The position numbers and the translations under genes were made by a program. Of a DNA stretch of 49,911 bases, positions 32,194-49,909 are shown piece after piece. The stretch lies in sequence record PZ445414.1. One strand, 5' to 3'. This stretch comes from a phage. Under the pieces are notes generated by a model that did no database searches, was not told the origin of the DNA, and saw only the letters and a list, made by a program, of their open reading frames with translations. Positions within the stretch are counted from its first letter, which is position 1; each line of letters starts with the position of its first letter.

Positions 32194-33312
32194 ATGATTC
32201 AGAAAATGACAGATCAGCAGTTTAAAGACGCACGAGCGGAGGGTAAAACCTACAAGCAGATCGCGGAGGAGTTCGGCTTGAATGTTCGCACCGTTGAGCG
32301 CCGCGCCGCTCGCCTGGCTCGCGCAGGTGAAACCGAAATCAAAGGAGCACCAGGTTTTGCGGTTGTTCGTGAGTCAGTCCTTACCCGCGCAAACGGCGAA
32401 GAAGTGATGCGCTGGACTATCACCAACAAAGATAAAGAGCAGTTGGAAGCACTCATGCAAGCCGCGATGGATGCATTTGCTGAGGAAGTTCCGCGCCTTG
32501 AGCCTCAGCCGGAAAGCCGAAAGGACTACAGCGAAAGCCTGGCGCTATACCCTATCTTTGACATGCACATTGGCGCAATGGCTCACAAGCATGAATGTGG
32601 TGAGAATTGGGACACGGCAACAGCCGAGAAGGTCATGAATGACTTCTTTGATTATGCGGTTGAGTGTGCGCCAAATAGCGAGAAAGCCGTGCTCCTGATT
32701 GGTGGAGACATGCTTCACAGTGACGGCCTGGAGGCTGTAACACCTGCCAGCGGTCACGTTCTGGATCAGGATAGCCGCTACGCCAAACTTGTTTATGTCG
32801 CAATCCGAGCAACTCGCCGCGCTATCTCATTGATGTTGACCAAGCACAAAGAAGTTGAAATTCAGGTAATCGAGGGCAATCATGACCAATCAGGCATGAT
32901 CTGGCTACGCGCAGCAATGGCTGCGGCATACGAGGACGAGCCGCGCGTGATGGTTGATGTTTCACCTCGCGTAGTGCATCACACGCAGTACGGAAAAACA
33001 TTCCTCGCGTATCATCACGGTCACACCGTGCGCAAGCCGGAAACGTTATTGATGATGTGTGCGGCAGATTGGCGAGAGGATTTTGGCAAATCAAAATCAA
33101 TGTATGCTCATGTAGGCCATTGGCATCACCAGACCGTAACAGAAACCAGCCTGGGTATTGTTGAAGTTCACAGCACTATGGCGGCTAAAGATGCGTATGC
33201 GGCACGTGGCGGCTGGCGCTCTCGTCGTCGCGCTGCGGTTATAATCTACGACAAAGAGCACGGCGAGATCGGTCGATTCATGTTCTACCCTGAAATGATG
33301 GAGTCAAAATAA
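32194..33312 (+). CDS. metallophosphoesterase (calcineurin-like) with N-terminal HTH
   Basis: motifs DMH, GDMLHSD, GNHDQ, YHHGH, HVGHWHH; N-terminal YKQIAEEFGLNVRTVERR HTH-like segment. Confidence 0.6.
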   Translation: MIQKMTDQQFKDARAEGKTYKQIAEEFGLNVRTVERRAARLARAGETEIKGAPGFAVVRESVLTRANGEEVMRWTITNKDKEQLEALMQAAMDAFAEEVPRLEPQPESRKDYSESLALYPIFDMHIGAMAHKHECGENWDTATAEKVMNDFFDYAVECAPNSEKAVLLIGGDMLHSDGLEAVTPASGHVLDQDSRYAKLVYVAIRATRRAISLMLTKHKEVEIQVIEGNHDQSGMIWLRAAMAAAYEDEPRVMVDVSPRVVHHTQYGKTFLAYHHGHTVRKPETLLMMCAADWREDFGKSKSMYAHVGHWHHQTVTETSLGIVEVHSTMAAKDAYAARGGWRSRRRAAVIIYDKEHGEIGRFMFYPEMMESK

Positions 33313-42751: not shown

Positions 42752-42810
42752 GTAGTTGGCACAATGAGCACGTCATGCAATTCTACCGCCAACGGATAAA
42801 GAAAATCCTC

Positions 42811-42830
42811 AATAGCACGAATTGCTAAAA
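42811..42830 (+). promoter_or_regulatory. conserved box + hairpin containing TATAGT
   Basis: aatagcacgaattgctaaaa. Confidence 0.55.
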
Positions 42831-42891
42831 CACCAGATCGGGGTTGCGCTATAGTAACCCCATCGAAACGAAACACACTGAGGAGCACAAA

Positions 42892-43059
42892 ATGAAATCT
42901 CGCAAATACCGCAACATCTTCAACAACCTGACGTACTGGCTGGAGGACGGCGCTGTCATGGTTAGCAACGGCGAGAAAACAAAGAAATCGCTGTTAAGCG
43001 CAGAGGAGTTTTTCATTGCGGTAGGCCGTGACGTTCTGGTACTGATTGAGGGGGAATAA
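42892..43059 (+). CDS. hypothetical protein (55 aa)
   Basis: ATG 42892 after box promoter, conserved leader CATCGAAACGAAAC and SD GAGGAG. Confidence 0.45.
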   Translation: MKSRKYRNIFNNLTYWLEDGAVMVSNGEKTKKSLLSAEEFFIAVGRDVLVLIEGE

Positions 43060-43062
43060 TAC

Positions 43063-43305
43063 ATGCTATCAATTCGCAACTGGTTTATGCGCTTCATCGG
43101 GAAAGAGGTTGAGGCTTTCGGCTACAACATTCCGGCAAACTTCAAGCGTGCTTGTCCTGGCAATGCCAGCGGGGTTTATTGGGAAATGCCAGACGGCACA
43201 TACTGGTTCACGGTTATTTCTGGAATGCCGATCCAGGTTAGTGAGCGCGACTATGAGCGCGGAACGTGGTTTACAGCAATGCAAGAGGTCGGGGAGGAAT
43301 TTTAA
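43063..43305 (+). CDS. hypothetical protein
   Basis: 80-aa ORF; Trp/Phe-rich. Confidence 0.4.
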   Translation: MLSIRNWFMRFIGKEVEAFGYNIPANFKRACPGNASGVYWEMPDGTYWFTVISGMPIQVSERDYERGTWFTAMQEVGEEF

Positions 43306-43841
43306 TGATCAAATTTGAGCTTTGGGGTTACACATACCATCTGCGCGGCACTTATGGTGTCGCAATCGTTGACCTGGACGGCACGCTTTCGGACGGCACG
43401 CACCGCTTGCACCTGCTGCCAACAAAGGACTTGCACCTCACTGAAAGCTGGAGCGAGTTTAACAAGGCGGCTGCAAACGACAAGCCGATCCAGAGCACGA
43501 TTGATGTTGTGCGCAACCTTTGGCGTGCTGGAATGGGCGTCGTTATCCTGACTGGTCGCAGTGACGAGGTGGAAACCGACACTATCCTTTGGCTAGACCG
43601 CCATAAGGTGAAATATGACTGGCTTATCATGCGCCGCGCCGAGGATAACCGAAAGGACACCGTTATCAAAGAGGAGGTGTTGCGTGCAATAGGTCTGCAT
43701 CATATTACGTGCGCCTTTGACGACTCGCCAAACGTGATCAGCCATTTCCGCAGCCTGGGAATCACAACCTATCAGGTGACGGAATACGACAAGCCTCACT
43801 CTCATTTGCAGAGTCACGGCGTGGATGAATTAGATGGATAA
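43305..43841 (+). CDS. HAD-superfamily phosphatase (DxDGT motif)
   Basis: 178 aa from ATG 43305 (SD GGGGAGG); motif I VAIVDLDGTLSDGTHR as in HAD hydrolases / polynucleotide 3'-phosphatases. Confidence 0.5.
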   Translation: MIKFELWGYTYHLRGTYGVAIVDLDGTLSDGTHRLHLLPTKDLHLTESWSEFNKAAANDKPIQSTIDVVRNLWRAGMGVVILTGRSDEVETDTILWLDRHKVKYDWLIMRRAEDNRKDTVIKEEVLRAIGLHHITCAFDDSPNVISHFRSLGITTYQVTEYDKPHSHLQSHGVDELDG

Positions 43842-44046
43842 GATCGTAACATGGATTTTCGGAGCGGTGATTGCCGCTCTATCCGTCCTGCTGGTGCTCA
43901 TAATTTGGGCGGCGGTATACATGACAGCGAGCGACGATTACACCTGCGAGAAAACAGGCCGCCAAGTTCTTGTTATGATTCCGTCTGGTAAAGTCATGGT
44001 TCCTATCATGCAGGACGAAACTATTTGCAAGAGGGTTGAGAAATGA
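43834..44046 (+). CDS. small membrane protein
   Basis: 70 aa; N-terminal TM helix IFGAVIAALSVLLVLIIWAAV. Confidence 0.4.
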   Translation: MDKIVTWIFGAVIAALSVLLVLIIWAAVYMTASDDYTCEKTGRQVLVMIPSGKVMVPIMQDETICKRVEK

Positions 44047-44258
44047 TTGTGACGCACGATGTAGAGCCAGGCGCGAGCACTGCGCGTGATATGATTGCCG
44101 GAATGCCGCCAAAATCGCACAGAATGGTACGTGTACGCGGTTATAATTTCAATGTCAGCCAAACGCTCAAGGAAATTTTAGCCTTGCCAGAAGTCGATAC
44201 AGCGCTTGTGGGAGTGCATACAAATGAATATGTTTCTTTCCACATTGTGACAAAGTGA
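44043..44258 (+). CDS. hypothetical protein
   Basis: 71 aa; ATGA coupling. Confidence 0.4.
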   Translation: MIVTHDVEPGASTARDMIAGMPPKSHRMVRVRGYNFNVSQTLKEILALPEVDTALVGVHTNEYVSFHIVTK

Positions 44259-44265
44259 GGTTGAC

Positions 44266-44475
44266 GTGATTCTTACAGTAGCTTTTGCCAATCCGCGAGC
44301 GTGCAACATCTTTGGATTCAGGGAGAGGATGCGCATTGAGGCCGAGCGCAACGATAAAGGCATCCTTTACGTCAAATCGCCAAAAACTGGCGTTGCAATG
44401 ATGGTCAAGGAGAATGGAGGCCGGATGTTCATTCGCTCAATGTCAGGCCAGGATCTGGTGACTTTCACAAAATAG
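44266..44475 (+). CDS. hypothetical protein
   Basis: 69 aa; GTG start after GAGG; stop TAG embedded in next box. Confidence 0.35.
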   Translation: MILTVAFANPRACNIFGFRERMRIEAERNDKGILYVKSPKTGVAMMVKENGGRMFIRSMSGQDLVTFTK

Positions 44476-44490
44476 CACGAATTGCTAAAA
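44471..44490 (+). promoter_or_regulatory. conserved box; TATAAT at 44510-44515
   Basis: aatagcacgaattgctaaaa; overlaps upstream stop TAG. Confidence 0.55.
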
Positions 44491-44547
44491 CGCGCTCCGA
44501 TAGGGGCGCTATAATGCACCCATACCAAGCAACGAGAGGAAAACAAA

Positions 44548-44778
44548 ATGAAATATCAAGTATTCAAGGCAGTAGACAAAATCGACGGCGACTTGTCAAT
44601 TTTCGTTTTCGACGAGAATGATAATTACACTGTGATTTTTTATTCTGATTACCTGCTTGGCCGAGTCATTGATCGAATTAAAAATGGGGATGGTTGCGAC
44701 TTGTCGGCGGACTCAATCGAATGCCCGCGCCGAAATGACATGGTAAATCCTGTTTTACTGTGCGAGATTGAAGCATGA
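44548..44778 (+). CDS. hypothetical protein
   Basis: 76 aa; box promoter with TATAAT at 44510-44515 upstream. Confidence 0.45.
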   Translation: MKYQVFKAVDKIDGDLSIFVFDENDNYTVIFYSDYLLGRVIDRIKNGDGCDLSADSIECPRRNDMVNPVLLCEIEA

Positions 44779-44966
44779 AGTGCATCCGGTCAACATACGA
44801 TCTATTCAAGGCGGGTGAGAGCTACCCGCTAATTGAGAAAGGCCAGGCTGGGCGGTTCACGGTGTACGAATACACCGACTCGCAGGGTTGGGTTTACACG
44901 TTCGGCCTAGACGAGAATCTTGAGCAAGAAACAGACGGCAATTTCATTAAATTTACAAAGGAGTAA
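44775..44966 (+). CDS. hypothetical protein
   Basis: 63 aa; ATGA coupling. Confidence 0.4.
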   Translation: MKCIRSTYDLFKAGESYPLIEKGQAGRFTVYEYTDSQGWVYTFGLDENLEQETDGNFIKFTKE

Positions 44967-44970
44967 CAAG

Positions 44971-45201
44971 ATGATTGAGATCAAATTCGATGGCAACTCT
45001 AAGCGATTCAACGGCGTACAGATCCACAAAGATGCAACACACGCGGTAGCTGGTCGCAATTTCGGCACTTATTTTAAGCTAAATGGCGAATGGTATTTCA
45101 CAGTTTTCTCTGGCTACGCGCTGAAAGCAACGGTTGCGTCTCATGACTTTGATATCCGCGATCACATCAGAGACGACGCAAAAATCACAGAGTTTAAATA
45201 G
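44971..45201 (+). CDS. hypothetical protein
   Basis: 76 aa from ATG 44971 after AAAGGAG. Confidence 0.4.
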   Translation: MIEIKFDGNSKRFNGVQIHKDATHAVAGRNFGTYFKLNGEWYFTVFSGYALKATVASHDFDIRDHIRDDAKITEFK

Positions 45202-45216
45202 CACTTTTTGCTAAAG
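45197..45216 (+). promoter_or_regulatory. conserved box; TGgTATAGT in hairpin loop
   Basis: aatagcactttttgctaaag. Confidence 0.55.
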
Positions 45217-45280
45217 ACTTTCCGCGAGGCCATTGGTATAGTGGCCTCATTGAAAGCAATCACGCAAACAGGAGATAAAA

Positions 45281-45438
45281 ATGCGTAACTTTGAGAAAAT
45301 CCGCACTAACAAAGACCGTCGCGCCGCTGGTGAGATTGTGGACTCACACCGTCGACGCAAGAAAACCCAAAAGCGCGGGAGTGAGGCAAAGCGCATGGAT
45401 TGGGATCAACTTCAAACTAACTACAAGGCAGGTCGATA
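45281..45438 (+). CDS. small basic protein (52 aa)
   Basis: ATG 45281 after box promoter, leader and SD CAGGAG; Arg/Lys-rich; preferred over out-of-frame track ORF 45291..45533. Confidence 0.45.
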
Positions 45439-46005
45439 ATGAAAAAGGTAATTATTCTCAACGCGCCACCAGGGGCTGGCAAAGACACCATCGGAAATCT
45501 GATTTGCAAGCATGCTCCGCAATACGTTGTTAAGCGCTCATTCAAAGAGCCGATGTTCAAGATCGCAAAGGCAATGTTGGGTGATTATCGTTTCGGTCTG
45601 TTTATGCAAGCGTATGACGACAGGGGGCAGAAAGAAAGAGCGCAATCTTTCCTGAATGGTAAATCACCTCGCCAGTTTATGATCTGGATTAGCGAGGACG
45701 TGATAAAACCTCAATTTGGGGATCAGTATTTTGGCGTGGTAATGGCTGAGGCCGTGCGAGATAGCCAGGTTCCGGTTGTCATTACTGACGGCGGTTTCCC
45801 CGATGAAGTTAAACCACTGGTCAGTGCTGGGATTCAGGTAAACATTTGCCGCCTACATCGTGACGGCTACACGTTTGCCGGAGATAGCAGGGATTATCTC
45901 AATCTTGAGGGCTACCATCACCGAATCGTGACGCGAGATTACATCCTGGTAAATGGCGATCCGATGCATACAATGATTCAGATCTGTGAGGATATTTTGG
46001 AATGA
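45439..46005 (+). CDS. P-loop kinase (putative nucleotide/polynucleotide kinase)
   Basis: 188 aa; Walker A NAPPGAGKDT at N-terminus; TAATG coupling. Confidence 0.5.
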   Translation: MKKVIILNAPPGAGKDTIGNLICKHAPQYVVKRSFKEPMFKIAKAMLGDYRFGLFMQAYDDRGQKERAQSFLNGKSPRQFMIWISEDVIKPQFGDQYFGVVMAEAVRDSQVPVVITDGGFPDEVKPLVSAGIQVNICRLHRDGYTFAGDSRDYLNLEGYHHRIVTRDYILVNGDPMHTMIQICEDILE

Positions 46006-46105
46006 TAACCACACCACACGATCCAAAAGAGCCGTTTGACTTCCACAAGGCCGCCGTTATCGGCCTTACAATCCTAACTGTCATTTACACTGTACGAGGT
46101 ATTTT

Positions 46106-46303
46106 ATGGCTGTTAACACACTAAAACGAATTGGCGTTATCATGCTAATTATCGGAGGGTCATTGCTAACAGAGCCAGGTTTTGCAAACACGGCTGGAAG
46201 TATGGCGCTGTTAATCGGCGGTCTTATTGGCGGCTACATGGACGGCGTAAAGGCTGGGCGGCGTGAGGCGTTCGGCGGTGAAGATAAAAATCCGATTAAA
46301 TAG
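46106..46303 (+). CDS. small membrane protein
   Basis: 65 aa; two hydrophobic Gly-rich segments; SD GAGG. Confidence 0.4.
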   Translation: MAVNTLKRIGVIMLIIGGSLLTEPGFANTAGSMALLIGGLIGGYMDGVKAGRREAFGGEDKNPIK

Positions 46304-46318
46304 CACGAATCGCTAAAA
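46299..46318 (+). promoter_or_regulatory. conserved box variant (TCGCTA)
   Basis: aatagcacgaatcgctaaaa; TGgTAAAGT downstream. Confidence 0.5.
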
Positions 46319-46384
46319 CTTCCGCGAGGGCATTTGGTAAAGTGTCCTCATTGAAGCAAAGCAACCAATCAAGGAGATAACGAA

Positions 46385-46663
46385 ATGGCTACTATCCGCA
46401 AACACCTGGTAAACGCATTCGAGAACGTTGGCGAGCGCTACGGCTGGGATGATGGACTGAAAACACCATACACGGCACGCCGCCAGGGTTTCAACTCACT
46501 GCGCGAGTGGGCGCGATGCATGGCGGCTAACTACATGCCGGAGAACTGGCAACTCATGCCTGACTCACTGCGCGAAATGATCGAAGATGCACAGGCGGCA
46601 GGTGTGCCACTCACTCAGCATGATTTTGACGATTACGCAGAGGAAGAAATTTTATGCTGGTGA
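46385..46663 (+). CDS. hypothetical protein
   Basis: 92 aa; box promoter (variant) and leader upstream; SD AAGGAG. Confidence 0.45.
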   Translation: MATIRKHLVNAFENVGERYGWDDGLKTPYTARRQGFNSLREWARCMAANYMPENWQLMPDSLREMIEDAQAAGVPLTQHDFDDYAEEEILCW

Positions 46664-49378: not shown

Positions 49379-49909
49379 ATGAGCAGAGAAGAAAAACAAA
49401 AGCCATTCACGGCTTACAACTTCAAGAAGCTATATAACAAGCAATATGGCGACATTGCCACGTTAGGCAAGCAACACCGATACACGCCGGAGCAGGTTTT
49501 CAATCTTGCGGTCAAATACTTTGAGTGGGCGGAGTCCAACGCGCTAAAGGCGGCTGAATCTTCATCGTTCCAGGGTCGCACTTACCAGGACGAGGTAAAC
49601 AAGCCGCGCGTTTTCACGTTCAACGGTCTGCGCCTGTTTTGCGGCTGGTCGCGCTGTGCTATGGAGAAATGGAAGAAAGAGCCTGGCTTCTCTGAGGTCA
49701 TGGAGTTTATCGAATCCGTGATCTATGAGCAGAAATTCCAGCTTGCGGCTAACGGCGTGATTAACGCTGCATTCATCGCCAAAGACCTGGGAGTTGACCA
49801 GCCGACGCAAATCAACGTTAGCGCAAACTCCGAGTCAAGCGCTGCAATCGCAGAGGTTGGGGCTGATGAAGTGCGCGAGGCGGTTCGTGATATCCTGGCG
49901 GAGATCTGA
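49379..49909 (+). CDS. terminase small subunit
   Basis: 176 aa; SD GAGGAGG; position immediately upstream of TerL in circular map; typical small-terminase size and charge pattern. Confidence 0.65.
   Translation: MSREEKQKPFTAYNFKKLYNKQYGDIATLGKQHRYTPEQVFNLAVKYFEWAESNALKAAESSSFQGRTYQDEVNKPRVFTFNGLRLFCGWSRCAMEKWKKEPGFSEVMEFIESVIYEQKFQLAANGVINAAFIAKDLGVDQPTQINVSANSESSAAIAEVGADEVREAVRDILAEI

What the first reader, a model, noticed from the sequence alone, without database searches (positions are those of the whole stretch)
43305..46005. Separate HAD phosphatase and P-loop kinase genes: possible split polynucleotide kinase-phosphatase function
Seen in sequence: 43305..43841 has the HAD motif I DLDGT (VAIVDLDGTLSDG); 45439..46005 has Walker A NAPPGAGKDT. 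Established knowledge: phage polynucleotide kinase-phosphatases combine these two activities for nucleic-acid end healing after host nuclease attack. Inference: the two genes may provide RNA/DNA repair against host defence, encoded as separate polypeptides; they could equally be nucleotide-metabolism enzymes.
Basis: inference. Interest (0 to 1): 0.35.

Follow-up and report, generated by a model that had tools for sequence, protein, structure and literature searches.

The report
Phage phosphatase and kinase gene pair
A T1-like coliphage carries a stand-alone copy of the phosphatase half of T4 polynucleotide kinase-phosphatase and, 1.6 kb downstream, an uncharacterised kinase related to phage dNMP kinases; the two genes are neighbours in hundreds of phages and occasionally fused, so they probably work together, more likely in recycling host DNA into precursors than in classical end repair.

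Summary
The window is the complete genome of Escherichia phage IsaakIselin (Bas10, Drexlerviridae).

- **HAD gene, 43305-43841.** It encodes a stand-alone Pnkp-type phosphatase (Pfam HAD_PNKP, 76 bits). All the T4 Pnkp phosphatase residues checked are conserved. The closest solved folds are Pnkp1 and the T4 Pnkp phosphatase. GenBank's name "polynucleotide kinase" is a misnomer.
- **P-loop gene, 45439-46005.** It is not Pnk-like. It falls in the same PHROG as T4 gp1 dNMP kinase, and its best-TM solved fold is T4 gp1. It belongs to a distinct, almost phage-only clade (GKDT ... DGGF..E ... DSR) that lacks the D-x-R arginine of T4 gp1 and T5 Dnk. No member has been characterised, as far as I could find.
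- **Linkage.** The order HAD then kinase, on one strand, holds in 70 of 80 viral contigs and in 734 phage records. The genes overlap in Drexlerviridae, Kagunavirus, Ahphunavirus and a Yersinia myovirus, and are fused in three protein clusters.
- **Other contexts.** The kinase also occurs without this HAD, beside dUTPase, thymidylate synthase, an NT5C-like HAD, metallophosphoesterases and DNA ligases.
- **Missing partner.** No ligase or tRNA is encoded here.

Verdict: a functional pair is supported. A host-DNA-to-precursor module is favoured at about 0.45. True split end-healing remains open at about 0.25.

The parts
43305..43841 (+). Stand-alone Pnkp-type HAD phosphatase (178 aa; GenBank bas10_0069, mis-named 'polynucleotide kinase'). 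Motif I is D23-L-D25-G-T; T83, R85, D118, K122 and D139-D140 complete the active site.
   Evidence: PF25109 at 3.7e-21, phrog_415 at 9e-66. PDB sequence hits Pnkp1 4xrp at 2.7e-8 and T4 Pnkp. AF2 model pLDDT 86; Foldseek top hits 4xru, 5uj0 and 1ltq. Residue mapping to T4 D165/D167/R176/S211/R213/D254/K258/D277/D278.
45439..46005 (+). P-loop kinase-like protein (188 aa; GenBank bas10_0077 'putative P-loop NTPase'). It belongs to a distinct 'DGGF' clade of the T4 gp1 / T5 Dnk / phosphomevalonate-kinase-like fold. Walker A is G12-A-G-K15-D16-T17; other signature residues are K36, R62, K65-E66, R78, S85-E86, K90-P91, D117-G-G-F120, E123, R138/R141 and D149-S-R151.
   Evidence: phrog_139 at 1.3e-45, the same PHROG as T4 gp1. 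No Pfam, NCBIfam or PDB sequence hit. AF2 pLDDT 94; best TM is to T4 gp1 1dek at 0.67. Viral fold hits are annotated dNMP kinase or PMVK. Signature conserved over 139 representatives below 50% identity.
43834..45439 (+). Seven small hypothetical ORFs (bas10_0070-0076) between the two genes. Relatives have 0-2.2 kb here, so this looks like variable filler inside an ancestrally adjacent pair.
   Evidence: GenBank table. Gap distribution in 70 loci. A close relative, L013, lacks 42832-44470 including the HAD gene.
32194..33312 (+). HTH-plus-nuclease-like protein (bas10_0042, phrog_704 'DNA repair exonuclease'). In Webervirus, Braunvirinae, Yersinia phage 531 and the fusion-bearing phages its homologue lies immediately beside the HAD/kinase pair. 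In this phage it is 10 kb away.
   Evidence: phrog_704 at 1.2e-147. Homology 37-65% to the neighbours of the pair elsewhere. Contexts.

Best explanation
The two genes form a conserved two-enzyme module of phage DNA and nucleotide metabolism. They are not a T4-style repair enzyme cut in two.

The HAD protein is a Mg2+-dependent aspartyl-phosphate phosphatase of the Pnkp clade. It would remove 3'-phosphates from DNA or RNA ends, oligonucleotides or 3'-(d)NMP/pNp. The P-loop protein is an ATP-dependent kinase of the gp1/Dnk fold that would convert 5'-dNMPs to dNDPs.

T1-like phages degrade the host chromosome and have no polymerase or precursor-synthesis genes. In that setting the module, often with the adjacent nuclease-like gene, would channel breakdown products of host nucleic acid into dNTP precursors: the phosphatase clears 3'-phosphate blocks so that exonucleases can release 5'-dNMPs, and the kinase phosphorylates them.

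Shown here: family and fold assignments, intact catalytic residues, and conserved linkage. Inferred: both substrates and the pathway.
For: - **Kinase family.** Same PHROG as T4 gp1. Highest-TM solved fold is T4 gp1 at 0.67. Motif-by-motif alignment with the biochemically characterised T5 Dnk: GKDT, SF.KP..E.A..LG, SPR, TD..FP.E. Viral fold neighbours are annotated dNMP kinase or phosphomevalonate kinase, none as Pnk.
- **Contexts of the same clade elsewhere.** dUTPase in Chaseviridae. An NT5C-like nucleotidase, thymidylate synthase and RNR in rV5. Beside DNA ligase in T7-like contigs. T7's own gp1.7 is a dTMP/dGMP kinase (PMC7693777, citing Tran 2012); that it lies near the T7 ligase gene is my recollection of the T7 map.
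- **Absent repair partners.** The phage has no ligase (tblastn E >= 0.095; annotation) and no tRNA.
- **Phosphatase.** The T4 Pnkp phosphatase acts on 3'-dTMP as well as on polynucleotide ends (PMC3592404).
- **Biology and prior suggestion.** T1 and TLS degrade host DNA and reuse the nucleotides (PMC11447400). PMC13164509 independently suggested nucleotide supply for this pair.
- **Nuclease neighbour.** A nuclease-like gene sits next to the pair in several lineages.
- **Kinase without the HAD.** This is seen in about half of the records and in a close relative with the HAD segment missing.
Against: - The clade lacks the D-x-R arginine conserved in T4 gp1 (DTR) and T5 Dnk (DVR), and analogous to adenylate kinase DGFPR. 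It has its own invariant set instead, so dNMP specificity is extrapolated.
- A phosphatase coupled or fused to a dNMP kinase has no obvious sequential chemistry unless the phosphatase is strictly 3'-specific.
- The kinase recurs beside phosphoesterases of three different families: HAD_PNKP, an NT5C-like HAD and a metallophosphoesterase. In some T7-like phages the order metallophosphoesterase, kinase, ligase mirrors the domain content of bacterial Pnkp repair enzymes.
- No curated dNMP-kinase model (Pfam, NCBIfam) matches.
Confidence: 0.45

Rival explanations
1. True two-component end-healing system. The HAD removes 3'-phosphate or 2',3'-cyclic phosphate, and the DGGF-clade kinase phosphorylates 5'-OH ends of broken DNA or RNA. 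That would make a kinase of the gp1/Dnk fold a non-orthologous replacement for the Pnk kinase. Sealing would be left to host LigA or RtcB here, or to a phage ligase in other phages. The system would counter host nucleases that leave 3'-P/5'-OH ends.
For: - The HAD is unambiguously of the Pnkp clade with all catalytic residues.
- The order HAD then kinase is conserved, with overlapping stop and start codons, in at least four phage lineages.
- 734 phage records carry the pair within about 1 kb.
- Three fused HAD-kinase protein clusters exist. Their domain order is the same as in mammalian PNKP (my knowledge).
- In T7-like contigs the kinase sits between a metallophosphoesterase and a DNA ligase, which is the domain set of Clostridium thermocellum Pnkp.
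- The kinase lacks the acceptor-phosphate arginine of proven dNMP kinases and has an invariant Glu123 there.
Against: - Similarity to the T4 Pnk kinase is confined to the P-loop (27 aligned columns).
- 1ltq is absent from the top 50 fold hits.
- Walker A is GKDT, not GK[ST].
- There is no D-x-x-R after strand 2. The aligned position 37 is variable, whereas Asp35 and Arg38 are essential in T4 (PMC2831316).
- No ligase and no tRNA are encoded in this genome.
- The kinase is often found without any Pnkp-type HAD, and the HAD without the kinase.
Confidence: 0.25
2. A 3'-to-5' phosphate-switch salvage pair. The HAD dephosphorylates 3'-(d)NMPs to nucleosides. The kinase is then a (deoxy)nucleoside or 3'-NMP 5'-kinase rather than an NMP kinase, regenerating usable 5'-nucleotides from 3'-phosphorylated breakdown products.
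For: - A sequential pathway would explain the fusions.
- The T4 Pnkp phosphatase hydrolyses 3'-dTMP, and T4 Pnk accepts nucleoside 3'-monophosphates (PMC3592404, PMC2831316).
- The DGGF clade replaces the phosphate-binding Arg with Gly and has an invariant acidic residue nearby.
- E. coli lacks deoxynucleoside kinases other than Tdk (my knowledge).
Against: This is pure inference; no homologue with such an activity is known. The many invariant basic residues (K36, R62, K65, R78, K90, R141, R151) fit a phosphorylated acceptor at least as well.
Confidence: 0.1
3. No functional coupling. The two genes are independent accessory genes, and their shared order reflects common descent within Drexlerviridae and general clustering of DNA-metabolism genes.
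For: - Most of the 70 syntenic loci and the 734 records are related siphoviruses.
- Each gene occurs alone in other phages.
- A close relative lacks the HAD segment but keeps the kinase.
- In this phage they are separated by seven ORFs.
Against: The same order with overlapping codons recurs in Autographiviridae, Guernseyvirinae, an unclassified Yersinia myovirus and Drexlerviridae. Three fusion clusters exist in phage contigs.
Confidence: 0.15

Closest known systems
T4 polynucleotide kinase-phosphatase (PseT; PDB 1ltq, 5uj0) and bacterial Pnkp1 of the Pnkp1-Rnl-Hen1 RNA repair complex (4xrp, 4xru)
   Same: The HAD protein shares the DxDxT acylphosphatase fold and the residues D165, D167, R176, S211, R213, D254, K258, D277 and D278. 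It is most similar to these structures by sequence and by fold.
   Different: The polypeptide carries no kinase domain. The partner kinase belongs to another branch of P-loop kinases. No ligase partner is encoded. The order HAD then kinase is the reverse of T4.
T4 gp1 and T5 Dnk deoxynucleoside monophosphate kinases (phrog_139; PDB 1dek), and animal phosphomevalonate kinase (3ch4)
   Same: Same PHROG. Best fold TM is 0.67 to 1dek and 0.57 to 3ch4. Shared features are the GKD[TF] Walker A, a helical acceptor domain inserted after strand 2, and TD..FP.E after strand 3.
   Different: DGGF replaces DTR/DVR, so the arginine is missing. The helical domain is shorter. The clade has its own invariant residues (R62, K65-E66, R78, S85-E86, K90-P91, D149-S-R151). 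No curated dNMP-kinase model hits it. I found no characterised member.
Clostridium thermocellum-type bacterial Pnkp (kinase + metallophosphoesterase + ligase-like domain) with Hen1
   Same: In some T7-like phages the same kinase clade lies between a metallophosphoesterase gene and a DNA ligase gene, which is the same three activities in principle.
   Different: The genes are separate and the kinase branch is different. This arrangement is not present in this window, and its function is untested.
T7 gp1.7 nucleotide kinase
   Same: A phage-encoded dNMP kinase in a phage that recycles host DNA. As I recall the T7 map, it lies near the ligase gene, so it would be a positional analogue of the DGGF kinase in other Autographiviridae (PMC7693777 for the activity).
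   Different: It is an unrelated protein without a Walker motif.

Membership tests
Pnkp-type HAD phosphatase (Pfam PF25109 HAD_PNKP) | Profile match above the curated threshold | tested here: met
   76.2 bits against a cut-off of 27.6, E 3.7e-21, covering 137 of 143 profile positions. phrog_415 at 9e-66.
Pnkp-type HAD phosphatase (Pfam PF25109 HAD_PNKP) | DxDxT nucleophile and acid-base residues, motif II Ser/Thr, motif III Lys, and the motif IV Asp that binds Mg (T4 D165, D167, S211, K258, D278; PMC3592404) | tested here: met
   D23, D25, T83, K122 and D140 align with these residues. The Asp and Lys columns are invariant and the motif II column is Ser or Thr in all 17 sequences, which include T4 and canonical Pnkp proteins. 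R34, R85 and D118 also match T4 R176, R213 and D254. That these three are essential is from my memory of Wang & Shuman 2002 and was not verified here.
Pnkp-type HAD phosphatase (Pfam PF25109 HAD_PNKP) | Fold closest to solved Pnkp phosphatase domains | tested here: met
   AF2 model pLDDT 86. Foldseek ranks 1-8 are Pnkp1 and T4 Pnkp (E 2e-9, TM 0.79 relative to 5uj0). Class B acid phosphatases come next.
Pnkp-type HAD phosphatase (Pfam PF25109 HAD_PNKP) | 3'-phosphatase activity on polynucleotide ends | not testable with these tools
   Needs an enzyme assay.
Bifunctional T4-type Pnkp | Kinase and phosphatase domains on one polypeptide | tested here: not met
   The HAD protein is 178 aa, with the HAD domain spanning residues 20-160 and no P-loop. 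Only three related clusters are fused, and those are fused to the DGGF kinase.
Polynucleotide 5'-kinase (T4 Pnk N-terminal domain type) | Homology beyond the P-loop to Pnk kinase domains | tested here: not met
   hhalign aligns only 27 P-loop columns. The P-loop protein hit only phrog_139, 31701 and 761, none of the PHROGs that T4 Pnkp hits, such as 505, 2071 and 8238. 1ltq is not among the top 50 fold hits.
Polynucleotide 5'-kinase (T4 Pnk N-terminal domain type) | GxxGxGK[ST] Walker A and the D35-x-x-R38 acceptor motif after strand 2 (essential in T4; PMC2831316) | tested here: not met
   Walker A is GAGKDT. The segment after strand 2 is S-F-K-E-P-M-F with an invariant K36 and a variable position 37, and no D-x-x-R. 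Structural equivalence was inferred from the alignment and not from a superposition.
Phage dNMP kinase (T4 gp1 / T5 Dnk, phrog_139) | Profile and fold membership | tested here: met
   phrog_139 at 1.3e-45; T4 gp1 hits the same PHROG at 1.8e-65. TM 0.67 to 1dek. Viral fold neighbours are annotated dNMP kinase.
Phage dNMP kinase (T4 gp1 / T5 Dnk, phrog_139) | D-x-R after strand 3 (DTR in T4 gp1, DVR in T5 Dnk, DTRR in PMVK) | tested here: not met
   The motif is DGGF in 113 of 139 representatives and D[SC]GF in 22. Only one representative has an Arg in the motif (DRGF).
Phage dNMP kinase (T4 gp1 / T5 Dnk, phrog_139) | Curated family model or experimentally shown dNMP phosphorylation | tested here: inconclusive
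   No Pfam hit. NCBIfam hits are all far below their cut-offs. No PDB sequence hit. No paper characterising a member of the clade was found.
RNA/DNA break repair system (healing plus sealing) | A ligase encoded with the healing enzymes | tested here: not met
   tblastn of T4 Rnl1 and four phage DNA ligases against the window gives best E 0.095. None of the 90 CDS is annotated as a ligase. Host ligases could substitute, which cannot be tested here.

The most novel reading that the evidence does not exclude
The DGGF-clade P-loop protein is not a dNMP kinase. It is a 5'-hydroxyl kinase for polynucleotide ends (or for 3'-NMPs or nucleosides) that evolved from the gp1/Dnk fold. Together with interchangeable phosphoesterases (Pnkp-type HAD, NT5C-like HAD, metallophosphoesterase) and sometimes a ligase, it would form a previously unrecognised modular end-healing toolkit, carried by well over a thousand sequenced virulent phages of Gram-negative bacteria and presumably countering nucleases that leave 3'-P/5'-OH breaks.
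Probability: 0.25. Interest if true: 0.65.

Novelty: new variant of a known kind. Interest (0 to 1): 0.37.

Why it matters
Three points follow from this.

First, database names for both genes are unreliable. The HAD gene is called "polynucleotide kinase" although it has no kinase domain. The P-loop gene is called "dNMP kinase", "P-loop NTPase", "phosphomevalonate kinase" or "replication factor C" in different records.

Second, the kinase belongs to a large, sharply conserved, almost phage-only clade: 3811 representative clusters at 50% identity and 1465 phage records. I found no biochemical characterisation of it.

Third, it is linked to a Pnkp-type phosphatase by conserved order and by fusion. 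Working out its substrate would show either how T1-like, N4-like, rV5-like and many T7-like phages feed host DNA into replication, or that they carry a new kind of break-repair counter-defence.

This phage is Bas10 of the BASEL collection and grows on E. coli K-12, so both ideas are directly testable.

Tried and rejected
**Searches that gave nothing for the P-loop protein**
- Direct sequence comparison with T4 gp1, T4 Pnkp and the PDB aligned only the P-loop or nothing at all.
- Pfam gave no hit and NCBIfam gave only hits far below their cut-offs. Only PHROGs, the structure prediction and a family HMM placed it.

**Checks for a repair context**
- A search of the window for a ligase found none.
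- A search for tRNA genes found none.
- The promoter and terminator scan of 42800-46500 was no better than shuffled sequence, so it says nothing about operon structure.

**Cellular homologues**
- The scan of 185,579 species genomes returned only 4 weak loci, mostly metagenome bins. None has a Pnkp-type HAD nearby.

**Apparent fourth fusion**
- A single-piece tblastn hit in phage SA12KD turned out to be two separate in-frame ORFs 108 nt apart.

**Longer relatives**
- Relatives with C-terminal tails (P0269, P0277, P0279, P0351) have no HAD domain.

**Literature**
- Searches found only annotation-level mentions of the pair and no enzymology of the DGGF clade.
- I could not verify in the held library that T4 R176, R213 and D254 are essential.

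**Not possible with these tools**
- I could not inspect model coordinates. Pocket shape, and hence mononucleotide versus polynucleotide acceptor, was not assessed.
Full report
**Identity of the window.** Region 43000-46200 is 100% identical to Escherichia phage IsaakIselin (Bas10, MZ501077; Drexlerviridae, Tempevirinae, Henuseptimavirus). The record is 49,911 bp, the same length as the window. The window is the same genome started 533 bases later. All coordinates below are window coordinates.

**Checking the observation.** Both ORFs are present as described.
- ORF 43305-43841 (+, 178 aa) contains VAIVDLDGTLSDG.
- ORF 45439-46005 (+, 188 aa) starts MKKVIILNAPPGAGKDT.
- GenBank calls them "polynucleotide kinase" (bas10_0069) and "putative P-loop NTPase protein" (bas10_0077).
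- Seven small hypothetical ORFs on the same strand lie between them.
- The motifs sit inside real, conserved domains. The HAD ORF scores 76.2 bits on Pfam HAD_PNKP (cut-off 27.6) and 9e-66 on phrog_415. The P-loop ORF scores 1.3e-45 on phrog_139.
- Each protein has hundreds of full-length homologues, and nearly all the long contigs listed are about 50 kb, the size of these phage genomes.

**The HAD protein is the phosphatase half of Pnkp.**
- Its best solved relatives by sequence are Pnkp1 of the Capnocytophaga Pnkp1-Rnl-Hen1 RNA repair complex (2.7e-8) and T4 Pnkp.
- I aligned it with stand-alone homologues, canonical two-domain Pnkp proteins and T4 Pnkp. In that alignment D23, D25, R34, T83, R85, D118, K122, D139 and D140 fall on T4 D165, D167, R176, S211, R213, D254, K258, D277 and D278. 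These columns are invariant or nearly so.
- The roles of D165 (nucleophile), D167 (acid-base), S211 and K258 (phosphate contacts) and D278 (Mg2+) are taken from PMC3592404. That R176, R213 and D254 are essential is my recollection and could not be verified here.
- An AlphaFold model (pLDDT 86) finds Pnkp1 and the T4 Pnkp phosphatase as its eight best PDB matches. Class B acid phosphatases follow.
- The protein has no kinase domain, so the GenBank name is a misnomer.

**The P-loop protein is not a Pnk-type kinase.**
- Pfam and the PDB sequence search give no meaningful hit, and the NCBIfam hits are all far below their cut-offs.
- Profile comparison with T4 Pnkp or T4 gp1 aligns only the P-loop.
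- It shares phrog_139 with T4 gp1 (1.8e-65), whereas T4 Pnkp falls in other PHROGs.
- A confident model (pLDDT 94) has its highest TM-score with T4 gp1 dNMP kinase (1dek, 0.67). Phosphomevalonate kinase follows at 0.57 and archaeal adenylate kinases at about 0.5. T4 Pnkp is not in the top 50.
- In the viral structure library the annotated neighbours are dNMP kinases and phosphomevalonate kinases.
- A family HMM aligns it motif by motif with T5 Dnk, which has been purified and characterised according to the reference cited in PMC11447400. The shared motifs are GKDT, SF.KP..E.A..LG, SPR and TD..FP.E.
- The T4 Pnk signature is absent. T4 Pnk has Walker A GK[ST] and the essential D35-x-x-R38 after strand 2 (PMC2831316).

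**It is also not a typical dNMP kinase.**
- I aligned 139 representatives that are each less than 50% identical to one another. They share a very sharp signature: N8, G14-K15-D16, K36, R62, K65-E66, R78, S85-E86, K90-P91, D117-G-G-F120, E123, R141 and D149-S150-R151.
- T4 gp1 has DTR and T5 Dnk has DVR after strand 3. This clade has DGGF followed by an invariant Glu, so the arginine is missing.
- The clade is large: 3811 representative clusters and 1465 phage records.
- It is almost confined to phages. Only 4 weak loci were found in 185,579 species genomes.
- I found no paper characterising a member.

- In 70 of 80 viral contigs carrying the kinase, a HAD_PNKP gene lies upstream on the same strand, always in the order HAD then kinase, with a gap of 0 to 2.2 kb.
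- I searched all phage records with a concatenated HAD+kinase query. In 734 records one joined hit, with both halves on one strand, covers at least 80% of the query; the tool's stated joining rule allows only a small gap between the halves.
- The stop and start codons overlap in Webervirus, Kagunavirus of Guernseyvirinae and Ahphunavirus of Autographiviridae. The genes are 12-50 nt apart in Braunvirinae and in Yersinia myovirus 531.
- Three protein clusters (P0260, P0388, P0265) are fusions with the HAD at the N-terminus and the DGGF kinase at the C-terminus. For two of them (P0260, P0388) the encoding contigs were inspected and carry phage genes; P0265 is known only from a 1.9 kb contig.
- A homologue of the window's nuclease-like gene at 32194-33312 (phrog_704) sits beside the pair in Webervirus, Braunvirinae, Yersinia 531 and the two inspected fusion-bearing phage contigs.

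**But the linkage is not obligatory.**
- By the counts above, roughly half of the phage records with the kinase lack such a joined hit. I examined a sample directly. An HMM search confirms that no Pnkp-type HAD lies within the fetched flanks in Chaseviridae, rV5, an N4-like phage, several T7-like contigs and three Drexlerviridae contigs.
- In those phages the kinase has other neighbours:
  - DNA ligase and dUTPase in Chaseviridae.
  - An NT5C-like HAD, thymidylate synthase and RNR in rV5.
  - An exonuclease in the N4-like phage KM01.
  - A metallophosphoesterase upstream and an overlapping DNA ligase downstream.
- The HAD alone occupies the equivalent position in Drulisvirus.
- A contig about 91% identical to this phage lacks 42832-44470, which includes the HAD gene, but keeps the kinase. 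That contig is partial, so the HAD could lie elsewhere in that genome.

**Interpretation.** I favour a module of nucleotide and DNA-end processing that serves precursor supply, at about 0.45.
- The kinase's only characterised relatives are dNMP kinases.
- Its other contexts are nucleotide-metabolism genes.
- Phages that recycle host DNA repeatedly acquire dNMP kinases: T4 gp1, T5 Dnk and T7 gp1.7 (PMC7693777).
- T1-like phages degrade host DNA and reuse the nucleotides (PMC11447400).
- A recent paper independently suggested nucleotide supply for this gene pair (PMC13164509).
- This genome has no ligase and no tRNA.
- A 3'-specific phosphatase fits this picture. It could clear 3'-phosphate blocks or process 3'-nucleotides, and the T4 enzyme accepts 3'-dTMP (PMC3592404).

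**The split end-healing reading stays open at about 0.25.** Four facts are easier to explain if the kinase acts on 5'-hydroxyl ends:
- the fusions;
- the recurrent pairing of this kinase with three different phosphoesterase families;
- the metallophosphoesterase, kinase, ligase arrangement, which echoes bacterial Pnkp;
- the missing acceptor arginine.

A nucleoside or 3'-NMP kinase forming a phosphate-switch pathway (about 0.1) and no coupling at all (about 0.15) remain possible.

**Novelty and interest.** Both genes are annotated in public records, and their co-occurrence has been noted in the literature. What is added here:
- correction of the "polynucleotide kinase" name;
- definition of a distinct, uncharacterised kinase clade;
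- counts of the gene pairing, and the fusions.

This is a variant of known kinds of enzyme, not a new kind of system. It is moderately interesting, mainly because the clade is so widespread and the question can be settled with simple assays in a tractable phage.

Noticed in passing
window 49379-49909 and window start: The window is the complete 49,911-bp IsaakIselin genome, circularly shifted by 533 bases relative to GenBank. The terminase small subunit gene (record 1-531) sits at the window's end.
   Followed up: yes
L072 8719-11523; L091 1093-4038: In T7-like contigs and in Vibrio phage MGD2 the same kinase clade lies between a calcineurin-like metallophosphoesterase (phrog_221) and an ATP-dependent DNA ligase whose start overlaps the kinase stop. 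These are the three activities of bacterial Pnkp-type repair enzymes, encoded as separate genes.
   Followed up: partly
L098 5995-7196 (phage rV5 ORF103-104): In rV5 the DGGF kinase overlaps a downstream HAD of a different family (NT5C-like deoxyribonucleotidase, 25.5 bits, just above the cut-off). It lies next to thymidylate synthase and ribonucleotide reductase genes.
   Followed up: partly
L013 8376-8457 versus window 42832-44470: A contig about 91% identical to this phage lacks a 1.64 kb segment containing the HAD gene and its flanking small ORFs, but keeps the kinase at 93% identity. This may be a natural HAD-minus variant, although the contig is partial.
   Followed up: partly
L065 9938-10615: The kinase homologue is split into two consecutive ORFs, which points to a frameshift, a pseudogene or an assembly error.
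   Followed up: no
L092 2189-3082 (N4-like phage KM01): This kinase homologue has a roughly 100-aa N-terminal extension that matches its own PHROG (phrog_26149). Viral fold hits also include relatives annotated as carrying a homing-endonuclease domain or as nucleoside 2-deoxyribosyltransferase.
   Followed up: no
window 43834-44046: The ORF overlapping the HAD stop codon encodes a 70-aa protein with a strongly hydrophobic N-terminal stretch (IVTWIFGAVIAALSVLLVLIIWAAVY), probably a small membrane protein. Its function is unknown.
   Followed up: no
window 32194-33312: bas10_0042 is annotated as hypothetical, but it matches phrog_704 'DNA repair exonuclease' at 1.2e-147 and has an N-terminal HTH (Sigma70_r4_2). 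Its homologues flank the HAD/kinase pair in other phages.
   Followed up: partly
L102 2443-3777 (phage SA12KD): In the depositors' annotation of this Tunavirus, rho-independent terminators lie just before the HAD gene and just after the kinase gene, with none between. That suggests a two-gene transcription unit there.
   Followed up: no
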